Source: a virus
Direction: 5' to 3' (one strand)
IMG/VR virus record: IMGVR_UViG_3300002038_000006
Location: 87,480-151,479 of that record
DNA length: 64,000 bases
Positions 36,366 to 43,913 of this stretch are shown one piece after another. Numbering within the stretch: the stretch's first letter is position 1; every line of letters starts with the position of its first letter. Below the pieces are notes generated by a model. That model was not told the DNA's origin. It was given only the letters and a program-made list of their open reading frames with translations, and made no database searches. The translations under genes were made by a program, and so were the position numbers.

Positions 36366-36444
36366 AAAAAAATAAGTGGGGGATAGTCGACATCCCCACT
36401 TATGCTTACTCTGAATAGAAAGGAAAAGGAATTAAACCTCTCTA
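36366..36444 (-). ncRNA. candidate sRNA A (~78 nt) with anti-leader tract
   Basis: Promoter 36443-36470, terminator 36366-36402, no ORF; contains UUUUCCUUUCUAUUCA. Confidence 0.55.
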
Positions 36445-36472
36445 TAATATTAACTCGGGTAAGTATTTTTTA

Positions 36473-36898
36473 TTAGTCGCGTTTAGATGGATTTAGAAAC
36501 AATGATGTAGATACTACCTGTTCCATGTCGAACTTGACAGATATTAGTCTAGCTAGTTCTTCTATACTAAGGAAGTAATGGTCATTGGTACAAGTCATAC
36601 GCATTGACATCTGAGTTTTGTTCAGACTTCTGTAAGTATCAGGATTACGCTCGAAGGTATTTACCTTACGTTCCAATTCAAGATATACACTATCTATAAC
36701 TTCAACTAGAGTTTCGGTATCGGTAGTCTTCTCGCAATAACCTTCAGTTATTTTAATATCGCTACCAACAACCTGAGCTCTACCTATCCCATGTTTAGCC
36801 ATTTCAATAGCTGTATCACGACGTTGCTTTATAAGAGCCATTGCTCCCATTAACATCATCGCATTACCAGCCATCTTTATCTCGTTAAGCAAAATCAT
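36473..36898 (-). CDS. hypothetical protein, paralog of 36899..37252
   Basis: Shared MGA, DT.TL.E..D..YL and M..TC....Y..SI...A motifs. Confidence 0.7.
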   Translation of the reverse strand: MILLNEIKMAGNAMMLMGAMALIKQRRDTAIEMAKHGIGRAQVVGSDIKITEGYCEKTTDTETLVEVIDSVYLELERKVNTFERNPDTYRSLNKTQMSMRMTCTNDHYFLSIEELARLISVKFDMEQVVSTSLFLNPSKRD

Positions 36899-37252
36899 TT
36901 ACATTTTACCGAAAGCTTTAATGAACTTGGAGTTACTATCCACCATGTCCTCTTCTATCTCGATGCCTAGCTCTTCAGCCATGATACGTATACTATCCAT
37001 ATAGCGATAGATGTTACAAGTACGCTTCATGGTTGTTAGTTTAGAGTTTAACGTTTTAGACTTCTTTAAAGCTTCGTTTATCTCTGCGTGCATCGCTAGA
37101 TACTTTCTATCTAGAATTTCAATTAGGGTAGTTGTATCACAACGTATTATTCTACCCTTAGTAAATGCTTTGGCTTCATTGCGCTTCAGGTAGAGGAACG
37201 ACAAGGCTCCCATTGTTACTAAAGCATCATCTGCTACTTTTACACTACTCAT
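36899..37252 (-). CDS. hypothetical protein, paralog of 36473..36898
   Basis: Same shared motifs. Confidence 0.7.
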   Translation of the reverse strand: MSSVKVADDALVTMGALSFLYLKRNEAKAFTKGRIIRCDTTTLIEILDRKYLAMHAEINEALKKSKTLNSKLTTMKRTCNIYRYMDSIRIMAEELGIEIEEDMVDSNSKFIKAFGKM

Positions 37253-37321
37253 TGTTATTCTTCCTTACTTTTAAATACATTTCTATATAATCACTGAGTT
37301 GCGTAATAATTTACTTTTTCT

Positions 37322-37750
37322 ATGATTACAACCAACAGGAGACACAAGGTGAAAGAAGTCACTATTGGCAATATCAAACTCGTCGACCTAGAGCGGATGA
37401 TTGACGGGCTTAAACTATTTAAGTTAGCCGAAGAGCACAGAGATGATGATTTTCCGGAACATCCAGTTCCAAATGGATTCATCGTTAATGGTGCGTCGGT
37501 GCCTAAGTTCTTAAGAGATATTATCTCACCTACGGGTGAACTATTCCGTGCGTCTGTGCCACATGATTATTTCTACGCTACCAAGGTAGTTAGTCGTGCC
37601 ACAGCAGATAGAATTTTCAGAAAGATTGTTTTAGACGATACAGGGAATGCGTTCCTTGCATGGGGAGCTTGGTTAGTCCTACGTTTATTCGGTCGCTCGT
37701 TCTGGAAGAAAGCAGGCACTGTTATCGAACAGGTATACCTAGAAGCATAA
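37322..37750 (+). CDS. DUF1353-like protein (tail-associated)
   Basis: VPNGFIVNGASVP...ASVPHDYFY...R..AD.IF...LRLFG. Confidence 0.8.
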   Translation: MITTNRRHKVKEVTIGNIKLVDLERMIDGLKLFKLAEEHRDDDFPEHPVPNGFIVNGASVPKFLRDIISPTGELFRASVPHDYFYATKVVSRATADRIFRKIVLDDTGNAFLAWGAWLVLRLFGRSFWKKAGTVIEQVYLEA

Positions 37751-37760
37751 GGAGTAGACC

Positions 37761-38306
37761 ATGTCAATAACTACGGCGATTTGTTATTTAGATACTGACG
37801 GAAAGGTCGTCGGGTTAAATTACGAATCTACTCAGTTCAATGTTAAAGAAGGGACGGTTACCGAAATAACTAAACCATACCCTTTTACCAGAGTCTTCCC
37901 TATCGAGTTCTTATTGGTAGATGCAGAGACTGGTGACATTCGTGTATACACTCATGAAGAAGTTGTCTTTATGGCATCTGTCGAAGAGGGTGAGATTGCA
38001 CGTGACGCATACATCGAAGCGGAAATTATCGTTCACGATGGTGTGTGGAAGATGTTGGATAAAGATAGAGCTAATATTCAAGATGGTATAGATGAAGCTG
38101 CTATGGCTAATCTACCTGACGATTTCAAGCAGAACTGGATTATGGCTAACGGAAGTATTTTCGAAGCTACTCCATTAAAGCTTGCTCAGGTACTATCTGC
38201 ATACCGTGCTCGTAAACAAGCAATCTACAACGAATATATTGGATGGTTGCAGTCAGGTGCTAGTGGTGAGTTTACAAGCTCAGTAACTAACACGTATACG
38301 TTCTAA
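37761..38306 (+). CDS. DUF4376-like tail fibre assembly protein
   Basis: DRANI...WIMANGS...L..VL.A..R C-terminal pattern; context. Confidence 0.55.
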   Translation: MSITTAICYLDTDGKVVGLNYESTQFNVKEGTVTEITKPYPFTRVFPIEFLLVDAETGDIRVYTHEEVVFMASVEEGEIARDAYIEAEIIVHDGVWKMLDKDRANIQDGIDEAAMANLPDDFKQNWIMANGSIFEATPLKLAQVLSAYRARKQAIYNEYIGWLQSGASGEFTSSVTNTYTF

Positions 38307-38310
38307 GGGG

Positions 38311-41979: not shown

Positions 41980-42230
41980 ACCTTACTATCCCTAATAATT
42001 TTAAATATTACCACTGTGAAGTATATGGCTGCGCCGTATAACGCTATGCACAGTAGTGTGATGAACCAAGCGATGGGGTCCAATCCTAATACAAACAGGT
42101 CTTTAGTTATTTGGATAGTCTCTGGGGCAATGTTCCCTAGTAGTATCCAATAACCTGCGAGTAATAAAGATATCACAAATGTTTTAAGTTGTGCCTTAAT
42201 CGCTTCTAGAACAACAGACTGTTCCAACAT
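41976..42230 (-). CDS. membrane protein
   Basis: Two TM helices. Confidence 0.55.
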   Translation of the reverse strand: MLEQSVVLEAIKAQLKTFVISLLLAGYWILLGNIAPETIQITKDLFVLGLDPIAWFITLLCIALYGAAIYFTVVIFKIIRDSKV

Positions 42231-42744
42231 AATGCACCTACTGCTATTAAACCTAATGCCAATATAGCACGAACACGCAAGTTGCCTACACCAACAGTTA
42301 GGTGGTCGTTGTGTCTGCGGTTAGTATCGAGCACATCACTTGGGTGAGTTTCACCATTTCTATCTTCAGAACTGTGTCCACAAGTAGGCCAGTGTAGTTT
42401 AGGTAGATTCTTTGCAGTGGCTATGTTAACGCAAGTGTTACGTTCCATGTCCATACAAGTTACTGGAGTTGACCCAGCACTAGCTGATATCTCTATATCA
42501 TCACGATGCCATAATTCTTCGGCTGTGTTATCTTCACACATCTTTATCCCCATGTAGGTCATCTAGATACTTACTGAAATCTGCCCCCGTATATCCCTTG
42601 GCTGATAAGTAGTCTAGAATACGTACTTTATGTTCGACTTCATTAACAACGATATAGTCAGTTGGTAATTCGTCTCTATCTTCGTAATCCAACCCAGCAT
42701 GAATTTTACTGGTGTTTGTACCTAGGTAAATTACACAAGTCACA

Positions 42745-42918
42745 TCACGGTCTATGTTTAGGGTTGGGCATGTTCTCAGCCACTATCGTTACGGCAGTTA
42801 CTTCTGCACCTGCATTCGCCATAGCTATTAACATACAGGTTGAGTCAAGACCTCCTGACCAAGGTACTGCTACTTTCTTACCTTTGTACTTACCGAATAA
42901 CTTATTCAACTTAAGCAT
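42745..42918 (-). pseudogene. truncated QueC-like PP-loop ATP pyrophosphatase (57 aa, absent from ORF track)
   Basis: MLKLNKLFGKYKGKKVAVPWSGGLDSTCMLIAMANAGAEVTAVTI...*; SGGLDS motif. Confidence 0.7.
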
Positions 42919-42919
42919 A

Positions 42920-43231
42920 CTACATTCTCTTATCTAGTTCACTGGCCAATTCAAGTAACTTAGGCATGTCGGTTTTAGCAAATAACAATCTATCTTTGCG
43001 ATACTCAAGAATTTCTTCAAAGGCCTTAAGCATTATCTCACGGTCTCTATCTTCAGTAACCGCATTGGTAGATGGAACAATCAAATGTTCAGAGGTATTT
43101 GAAAAACCCGTAAATATTGGATGGTCTGGATTATCTTCTTTAAGGACTGCTACCAACTCTTCGGTATGTTTAACGTCAGCTTCTAATTGTTCTATACGTT
43201 GTTGTACTGCTTTCACTGCTAAATTACTCAT
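42920..43231 (-). CDS. hypothetical coiled-coil protein
   Basis: ORF in operon. Confidence 0.55.
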   Translation of the reverse strand: MSNLAVKAVQQRIEQLEADVKHTEELVAVLKEDNPDHPIFTGFSNTSEHLIVPSTNAVTEDRDREIMLKAFEEILEYRKDRLLFAKTDMPKLLELASELDKRM

Positions 43232-43233
43232 GG

Positions 43234-43716
43234 TTATCCCCTAAATTGTTTACACGGTGTTCCTTTATCATTTAAGAACTTCTTACCGTCATGTTTGGTA
43301 TAGTCATTGTTATCGGGTAGACTATCGTGATTACACATAAACTCTTCTAAGTACCATACTTCACTAATACCTAAAAGATACAAACTCTTAGCACATTCAA
43401 TACAAGGTGAGTGTGTTAAGAAAACTATGCCGCCTGTAGCAACAATACCTGTACGAGATAACTTATCCAGAGAATTACGTTCTGCATGAACTACTTCTGG
43501 TCTGGTTTTTCCTGCTAGAGTAGGATGGTCATCATCATATTCGCACTTGTTAGGTGAACCGGGAGGCATACCATTCCAACCTACAGATATTAACCCGTTA
43601 GTCGTTACCAGTACACTACCCACAGTTCTTTTCTTAGCTACAGATTCTTGTCTACACCTTACAGCCATATCCATATACAGTTTAAAGTACTTGGGCTTTA
43701 GTGGGTCAATCATCAT
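43234..43716 (-). CDS. dCMP deaminase
   Basis: GWNG.P, HAE.N, THSPC.EC.K; start at ATG 43716 behind AAUAAAAGGA. Confidence 0.92.
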   Translation of the reverse strand: MMIDPLKPKYFKLYMDMAVRCRQESVAKKRTVGSVLVTTNGLISVGWNGMPPGSPNKCEYDDDHPTLAGKTRPEVVHAERNSLDKLSRTGIVATGGIVFLTHSPCIECAKSLYLLGISEVWYLEEFMCNHDSLPDNNDYTKHDGKKFLNDKGTPCKQFRG

Positions 43717-43799
43717 AATCCTTTTATTAATATCGATGGTTCTATAATAATACATGCTGATGTATTTTTTTAACCAAAAAAAAAATAGACGGCATAAGT

Positions 43800-43913
43800 A
43801 AAAAAAGGGGGACCAGAGGCGGTCCCCCAAAGGGTGAGAGTCGCGAACTCTCCTGTGGACGCTAGTTTGACCGGTTGAATAAAAGAAAAGAGGTACGAAC
43901 AACGTCCTCTCTA
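43800..43913 (-). ncRNA. candidate sRNA B (~115 nt) with anti-leader tract
   Basis: 5' AGAGG/CCUCU hairpin, then UUUUCUUUUAUUCA, a GAGAG/CUCUC hairpin, and a GGGGAC/GUCCCC terminator with U-tract. Confidence 0.55.

What the first reader, a model, noticed from the sequence alone, without database searches (positions are those of the whole stretch)
36366..43913. Two sibling sRNAs antisense to the phage's own conserved AAUAAAAGGA leader: a candidate translational shut-off switch
Seen: ORF-less units A (36366-36444) and B (43800-43913) both begin AGAGAGG-loop-CCU, continue into UUUUCCUUUCUAUUCA (A) or CUUUUCUUUUAUUCA (B), and end in U-tract terminators. At least 9 minus-strand genes share the leader AAUAAAAGGA(A/G)A (132, 2231, 10703, 15245, 24661, 26907, 30161, 46423, 55932). 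Several are under early promoters, including the RNAP subunit. B can pair 13 nt (one G-U) with AAUAAAAGGAAAG, and A can pair 13 nt with one bulge, in both cases covering the SD. A has a middle-type promoter; B's promoter is unclear. Inference: trans-acting phage sRNAs silence an early regulon through a common leader barcode, and perhaps host mRNAs too.
Basis: partly seen in the sequence, partly recalled or inferred. Interest (0 to 1): 0.8.

Follow-up and report, generated by a model that had tools for sequence, protein, structure and literature searches.

The report
Three jumbo-phage antisense small RNAs

Summary
The genome is an uncultured 218-kb marine nucleus-forming jumbo phage. Units A and B and the shared leader are real, but A and B are not siblings: their common 5' heptamer occurs at chance frequency and is only a hairpin arm. 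A is the tandem neighbour of a missed third unit, C (36318-36133); B is a four-hairpin 3'-UTR element with no promoter found. The anti-leader tracts are the least conserved parts: relatives keep the leader (19, 20 and 23 copies in three genomes) while losing the tracts, so a conserved 'barcode' shut-off is not supported. What is conserved is a promoter-hairpin-seed-terminator design. C's 9-nt seed is invariant in nine genomes and is antisense to start codons; its best targets are a DUF488-N3a gene (ranks 3, 3, 1 of about 240 starts; 18-nt exact complement covering the SD in one relative) and gene 11401-11691. B's seed pairs 10/10 with the start region of gene 33564-34283 (suggestive only, p about 0.2). 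No Rfam family fits, and no RNA data exist. The scan has noted similar anti-ribosome-site RNA candidates in other jumbo phages (unchecked AI notes). Verdict: probably gene-selective trans-acting sRNAs; first reading partly supported.

The parts
36445..36471 (-). Middle-type (non-virion RNA polymerase) promoter of A: A-tract + TAC box and AT-rich -10 box
   Evidence: Pattern match; kept in 4 of 4 genomes that have A; resembles the phiKZ middle motif described in PMC8244752. Activity inferred.
36366..36443 (-). Unit A, about 78-nt small RNA: 5' hairpin, single-stranded core, intrinsic terminator
   Evidence: Fold z -3.3; homologues in L021, L024 and G001; not found at this locus in L023, G002, L065, L068, L069
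36424..36430 (-). A hairpin loop, anti-SD heptamer complementary to the last 7 nt of the leader
   Evidence: Exposed (probability unpaired 0.42-0.91 for its 5-nt core) in 3 of 4 A homologues, absent in G001
36405..36415 (-). Invariant 11-nt single-stranded core of A; no convincing phage target found
   Evidence: Identical in all 4 homologues, unpaired; no conserved start-region partner
36319..36344 (-). Middle-type promoter of C
   Evidence: present in 9 of 9 genomes
36133..36318 (-).
   Evidence: Fold z -3.3; syntenic in 9 genomes upstream of kdsB
36282..36290 (-). Invariant 9-nt seed of C, antisense to an AUG-AAA start. Its predicted main target, the start of a DUF488-N3a gene, lies outside the window (genome G000 about 154215-154239, minus strand, 2.7 kb beyond the window's end)
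   Evidence: Invariant in 9 genomes at 48% mean column identity; target is Pfam PF22751, ranks 3/264, 3/226, 1/239, 2/41; 19-bp helix in G002; permutation test
36241..36249 (-). C-rich anti-SD-like motif of C, in or beside the loop of its second hairpin
   Evidence: A related motif occurs in all 9 homologues in stems of unrelated sequence; predicted clearly exposed in 4, intermediate in 1, mostly paired in 4
43800..43949 (-). Unit B: four-hairpin RNA in the 3' UTR of gene 43957-44685; no promoter of its own found
   Evidence: 9 of 30 consensus pairs show double-sided changes in 5 genomes; 3' core in 9 genomes, 5' module in 5 lineages
43876..43890 (-).
   Evidence: Only its U-rich tail is conserved, in 5 lineages; missing in L063, L065, L068, L069
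43855..43864 (-). Conserved seed of B
   Evidence: perfect 10-bp partner at 34283-34292
34283..34292 (-). Predicted B target: spacer between SD and start codon of gene 33564-34283 (239 aa, unknown function, third gene of the kdsB-kdsD operon)
   Evidence: Rank 1 of 264 starts; partner kept in L024 and G002, matching double change in L068, lost in G001, L065, L069
11683..11702 (-). Predicted second C target: start region of gene 11401-11691 (96 aa, unknown)
   Evidence: Ranks 2, 4, 2 in three genomes
26910..26919 (-). One example of the shared 10-nt A-rich SD leader (others start at 144, 2243, 10714, 15256, 24672, 30173, 43728, 46435, 55944)
   Evidence: clade-wide, absent from the 67 kb of phiKZ examined

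Best explanation
A, B and C are three separate small-RNA genes of a marine chimallivirus clade that act in trans by base-pairing over translation starts of selected messages, not over a whole early regulon. C (and A, probably a tandem duplicate of C's design) is made from a middle promoter. C's invariant seed pairs across an AUG-AAA start codon and the bases just before it, and the C-rich loop further 3' can add SD pairing in the right antiparallel order; the best phage targets are the DUF488-N3a gene and gene 11401-11691, whose translation would be held down in middle infection. B is co-transcribed with the gene upstream, probably released from the 3' UTR, and pairs with the start region of gene 33564-34283. 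Shown: sequence conservation, structure covariation in B, complementarity and its ranks. Inferred: transcription, processing, pairing in the cell, repression, timing. Because C's and A's cores are invariant rather than co-varying, each probably also has several or host-encoded partners that could not be searched.
For: Promoter-hairpin-core-terminator layout kept in 9 genomes for C, 4 for A, and B's 3' core in 9. C seed: DUF488-N3a start ranks 3/264, 3/226, 1/239 and 2/41 in a fourth lineage fetched after the prediction was noted (prediction only partly met: 9 bp, one mismatch, 3 bp). 0/150 column permutations reach the combined score or the best z of -6.8. In G002 sRNA and target both differ from the other lineages and form an 18-nt exact complement 29 kb apart; 2000 shuffles reach at most 15 nt. 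The invariant G of the seed always faces U or C at position -1. B: rank 1/264, 4/239, 2/42, 3/27 in four lineages, a matching double change in L068, and a separate 15-bp tract helix with the same leader in G002.
Against: No transcript evidence. Outside G002 the C pairings are 9-11 bp and not always best with their own target; the permutation null understates the advantage of a seed that reads AUG. C's seed is palindromic and predicted partly self-paired (probability unpaired 0.02-0.36 in 8 of 9). B's target fails in G001, L065 and L069, and its three-genome tests are not significant (54/150 and 26/150); start-region 7-mers are often shared between these genomes anyway (39/199). B's seed is predicted sequestered in full-length B. 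A has no identified target.
Confidence: 0.5

Rival explanations
1. One reading: A and B silence an early regulon through the shared 10-nt leader.
For: Leader enriched at early promoters in three genomes (9/21, 9/20, 8/18). In this genome A and B prefer leader genes (p about 1e-8 and 1e-9) and beat 56 terminator-tail controls. A's anti-SD loop is exposed in 3 of 4 homologues; B's U-rich tail is kept in 5 lineages.
Against: Leader kept at full number where the tracts are lost or the units absent; weak energies; A's match explained by composition; leader also on middle and internal genes and missing from over half of early-promoter genes.
Confidence: 0.12
2. Generic anti-SD / anti-start sRNAs aimed mainly at host messages (or at many strong starts, phage and host alike); the phage matches are by-products.
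For: Invariant cores suggest a partner the phage cannot change; every genome carries an anti-SD-like motif in A or C; A's core has no phage partner; only 5-6 phage genes per genome start with pyrimidine-AUG-AAA.
Against: Does not explain the 18-nt lineage-specific complement in G002 or the same two phage genes ranking at the top in all genomes. Host unknown, so untested.
Confidence: 0.2
3. The RNAs are protein-binding or structural elements (decoys, processing or stability signals); B is simply a regulated 3'-end/terminator region, and C's palindrome is a protein site or the start of a tiny ORF.
For: C's seed is a palindrome and contains AUG-AAA; B has an invariant-looking hairpin loop, no promoter, and an optional module that looks like a second terminator.
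Against: The palindrome occurs at no other promoter and follows the hairpin at variable distance from the start, as an RNA element would; the frames it opens run from 3 to over 30 codons with no conserved peptide and the SD-like bases are paired.
Confidence: 0.14
4. Not functional: chance spacing of promoters and terminators.
For: No RNA data; no Rfam match.
Against: Invariant 9- and 11-nt cores and hairpins kept across genomes whose neighbouring proteins are 36-88% identical.
Confidence: 0.04

Closest known systems
c4 antisense RNA of phages P1 and P7 (PMC12197685)
   Same: Phage-encoded, trans-acting, structured RNA that pairs near the ribosome-binding site of a phage message and blocks translation.
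   Different: c4 controls an antirepressor in temperate phages; these are in a lytic nucleus-forming phage, read from middle-type phage-polymerase promoters, with unrelated sequence (no Rfam C4 hit) and an anti-start-codon seed.
LhrC of Listeria and other C-rich anti-SD sRNAs (PMC4132741)
   Same: CU-rich motifs presented in hairpin loops; A's 5' hairpin loop aligns weakly with the LhrC terminator loop.
   Different: Score 18.9 against a gathering cut-off of 110, E 3.8; no UCCC triple redundancy; phage not bacterial; resemblance of mechanism only.
Candidate small RNAs of phiKZ and 201phi2-1 (PMC10914365, PMC11512511)
   Same: Short promoter-to-terminator or UTR-derived transcripts in nucleus-forming jumbo phages; some conserved between phages.
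   Different: Those are observed transcripts with no target or function; these are unobserved but have predicted targets. The A, B and C cores were not found in non-coding DNA of phiKZ, G004 or G005.
3'-UTR-derived bacterial sRNAs (class; from general knowledge)
   Same: B lies between a stop codon and the terminator, with a conserved seed upstream of the terminator.
   Different: No processing site, Hfq binding or transcript shown.

Membership tests
Any Rfam family | Covariance-model score above gathering threshold | tested here: not met
   No hit in the window; best sub-threshold hits E 0.55-3.8
c4-type trans-acting phage antisense RNA | Sequence/structure homology to Rfam C4 | tested here: not met
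c4-type trans-acting phage antisense RNA | Complementarity to the translation start of a distant phage message | tested here: met
   C; for B suggestive only
c4-type trans-acting phage antisense RNA | Discrete transcript that represses the target by pairing | not testable with these tools
   Needs infection RNA-seq and reporters
LhrC / C-rich anti-SD sRNAs | Homology to LhrC (RF00616) | tested here: not met
   18.9 bits against 110
LhrC / C-rich anti-SD sRNAs | C/U-rich anti-SD motif exposed in loops | tested here: inconclusive
   Present in every genome in A or C; predicted exposed in most but not all
Sibling (multicopy) sRNA family A+B | Shared conserved core and architecture | tested here: not met
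   Cores, promoters and hairpin number differ; shared heptamer at chance level
Leader-barcode shut-off system | Co-occurrence and co-variation of antisense tract and leader across relatives | tested here: not met
3'-UTR-derived sRNA (B) | Located between stop codon and terminator, no own promoter, conserved seed | tested here: met
3'-UTR-derived sRNA (B) | Release by processing; chaperone binding | not testable with these tools
   Needs 5'-end mapping
Host phage: nucleus-forming chimallivirus-like | Nuclear shell protein and multisubunit phage RNA polymerase | tested here: met
   PHROG 4795 at 3765-5663 and PHROG 2987 at 742-2226

The most novel reading that the evidence does not exclude
A lytic nucleus-forming phage clade runs its own network of trans-acting small RNAs: C reads start codons with an invariant seed plus an anti-SD loop and times a conserved DUF488-N3a enzyme gene (possibly like an antitoxin RNA), B controls a gene of the Kdo operon, and in this lineage A and B have additionally gained exposed anti-leader tracts that dampen early messages.
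Probability: 0.3. Interest if true: 0.8.

Novelty: new variant of a known kind. Interest (0 to 1): 0.58.

Why it matters
Jumbo-phage transcriptome studies list small RNAs but give no targets or functions (PMC10914365, PMC11512511, PMC8244752), and two literature searches here found no base-pairing sRNA shown in a nucleus-forming phage (limited library). These phages separate transcription from translation, so a post-transcriptional layer would explain how they time genes after messages leave the phage nucleus. The predicted C target is a gene family found in 289 phage records, among them phiKZ and Goslar, whose function is unknown; tight antisense control would suggest its product is harmful when mistimed. 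The pairings are short, specific and testable with ordinary reporters.

Tried and rejected
Rfam, tRNA and megablast searches: nothing. Sequencing runs: no RNA holder listed; one DNA contig set only confirmed the sequence. Sigma-70 promoter for B: none called by the scan and not conserved. Shared 5' heptamer as a family mark: chance level. Tiny ORF in C: no conserved length or peptide. DNA operator reading of C's palindrome: no other promoter-linked copy. tRNA-like T-arm reading of B's third hairpin: no acceptor stem, hairpin missing in L068. A-core targets: start-region hits not conserved; one coding-region site in G000 and G001 is codon-constrained and was not accepted. Automatic consensus fold of C's 5' hairpin failed because the stems cannot be aligned; hairpins were folded singly, so covariation there is not counted. 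A first RNAup-style script timed out; the energy model used afterwards is my own simplified one. Antisense partners of the DUF488 start in phiKZ, G004, G005: none convincing. Function of genes 33564-34283 and 11401-11691: no family or fold found. Host: not identified; closest KdsD relatives are mostly marine Gammaproteobacteria at 51-56%, so host targets were not searched. The paper defining DUF488-N3a was not held.
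Full report
Setting. The window is part of a 218,099-bp virus record that encodes a nuclear shell protein, phage RNA polymerase subunits, terminase and tail sheath; the nearest cultured phages are under 38% identical in the polymerase subunit. It comes from a marine algal metagenome. Eight to nine uncultured relatives were recovered: two complete genomes (G001, G002; terminase 90% and 86%) and syntenic contigs L021-L024, L063, L065/L066, L068, L069. 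L022 and L024 come from one run and are treated as one phage; L023 is close to G001.

Observation. The leader is a real feature of this clade: 19 of 22 genomic copies lie at gene starts, it is enriched behind early-type promoters in three genomes and it is absent from the phiKZ DNA examined. But over half of early-promoter genes lack it, and it also precedes middle and operon-internal genes, including the gene right after B. It is best read as a strong A/U-rich ribosome-binding site (inference).

A and B are not siblings. The shared 5' heptamer occurs 19 times against 19.5 expected; it is the 5' arm of a hairpin and changes in relatives together with its 3' arm. A is a stand-alone unit with a middle-type promoter, a 5' hairpin, an invariant 11-nt core (36415-36405) and a terminator. 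A's true look-alike is unit C, directly downstream (36318-36133), with the same promoter type and layout; C is present in all nine genomes, A in four.

The leader test. In this genome A and B do prefer leader genes and outrank 56 other hairpin-plus-U-tail elements. In G001 A has lost the loop and B the key C residues, and neither prefers leader genes; in G002 A is absent and B shows no preference. Both genomes keep 20 and 23 leaders. L063, L065, L068 and L069 lack B's tract, the last three lack A, and all still carry the leader. The tracts are thus the variable parts. A lineage-restricted damping of leader genes is not excluded.

What is conserved. C carries a 9-nt seed (36290-36282) that is invariant in nine genomes at 48% mean column identity, right after a 5' hairpin of freely varying sequence, followed by a second hairpin with a C-rich anti-SD-like motif. 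Comparative target ranking picked out the start of one gene, a DUF488-N3a protein lying 2.7 kb beyond the window's end (genome G000 153867-154226): rank 3/264, 3/226 and 1/239. In G002 both partners differ from the other lineages and form a 19-bp helix from the SD to codon 3; the 18-nt exact complement was not approached in 2000 shuffles (maximum 15). I noted a prediction for a fourth lineage and then walked to its gene: the core 9 bp and a predicted C-G pair were found, with one mismatch, rank 2/41; this is partial, not full, confirmation. A second gene, 11401-11691, ranks 2, 4, 2 with a similar strong-SD, short-spacer start. No column permutation of the seeds matched these scores (0/150), although that null favours a seed that reads AUG. 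Own-target preference is clear only in G002.

B's conserved seed (43864-43855) is a perfect 10-nt complement of the SD-to-start spacer of gene 33564-34283 in the kdsB-kdsD operon, rank 1/264. The site is kept in two other lineages (ranks 4/239, 2/42), changes in step with the seed in L068 (rank 3/27), and in G002 B's tract forms a further 15-bp helix with the same leader, which is a variant of the common leader. It fails in G001, L065 and L069, and the three-genome permutation tests give p about 0.36 and 0.17. This is a lead, not a result. A's invariant core has no credible phage partner.

Mechanism. Most likely (about 0.5) these are gene-selective trans-acting sRNAs that occlude translation starts: C from a middle promoter onto AUG-AAA starts with optional SD pairing through its loop, B released from a 3' UTR. 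Conservation and complementarity are shown; transcription, processing, pairing and repression are inferred.

Comparison and novelty. They would work like c4 of P1/P7 (PMC12197685) and like C-rich loop sRNAs such as LhrC (PMC4132741), but belong to no Rfam family. Small RNAs are recorded in phiKZ and 201phi2-1 without targets. The cores are not found in phiKZ or two more distant relatives, so the families look clade-restricted. Earlier notes of this scan describe similar anti-ribosome-site RNA candidates in other jumbo phages; they are unchecked and are not used as support. DUF488-N3a homologues occur in 289 phage records; its placement among rhodanese-phosphatase enzymes is from memory and was not verified.

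Verdict. Observation partly confirmed, interpretation partly supported; new variant of a known kind; interest 0.58, limited by the lack of any RNA data and by a best-supported pairing that is strongest in a relative rather than in this genome.

Noticed in passing
genome G000 about 51886-53134 (outside the window), against G001 30998-32266: A conserved 422-aa gene that is one frame in G001 and G002 is split into two overlapping frames in this genome near residue 182-188; frameshift, programmed or not, or assembly error.
   Followed up: no
window 43903-43912: The 5' arm of B's second hairpin resembles the start region of B's predicted target and can pair with B's own seed, so full-length B may be self-inhibited until processed.
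   Followed up: partly
window 36174-36185: A window-specific 3' part of C is complementary to a second leader type (ACAGGAGA class) in several genes, e.g. 156-419 and 37322-37750; it also pairs with C's own 5' end and is absent in relatives.
   Followed up: partly
L001:16797-16825 (G001 unit B, first hairpin): The loop carries the C-rich motif typical, from memory, of alphaproteobacterial cuckoo/CcsR sRNAs; not conserved in other B homologues.
   Followed up: no
genome G000 about 79010 (outside the window): Another hairpin followed by a U-run and the same four bases that end B's tract; suggests the tail may be a terminator or processing signal.
   Followed up: no
window 10714-10750 and genome G000 154226-154270: Hairpin plus TATG motif sits directly before a ribosome-binding site with no other promoter; the same layout precedes the DUF488 gene in phiKZ. 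It may be a terminator overlapping a late promoter.
   Followed up: no
window 2243-2500: The RNA polymerase subunit gene 742-2226 has an unusually long (about 200 nt) region between its early promoter and its start.
   Followed up: no
window 34310-36068: kdsB and kdsD/kpsF (Kdo synthesis) genes directly downstream of C in the relatives read; start of kdsB is at 36068, not at the GTG listed at 36161.
   Followed up: partly
L171 (phiKZ 71046, minus strand): 15-bp match (2 G-U) to the phiKZ DUF488 start region, but it includes the common terminator motif and is probably chance.
   Followed up: partly
window 15238-15471: Large ORF-poor structured region noted by another reader; A's core matches its edge at 9 bp, not checked for conservation.
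   Followed up: no
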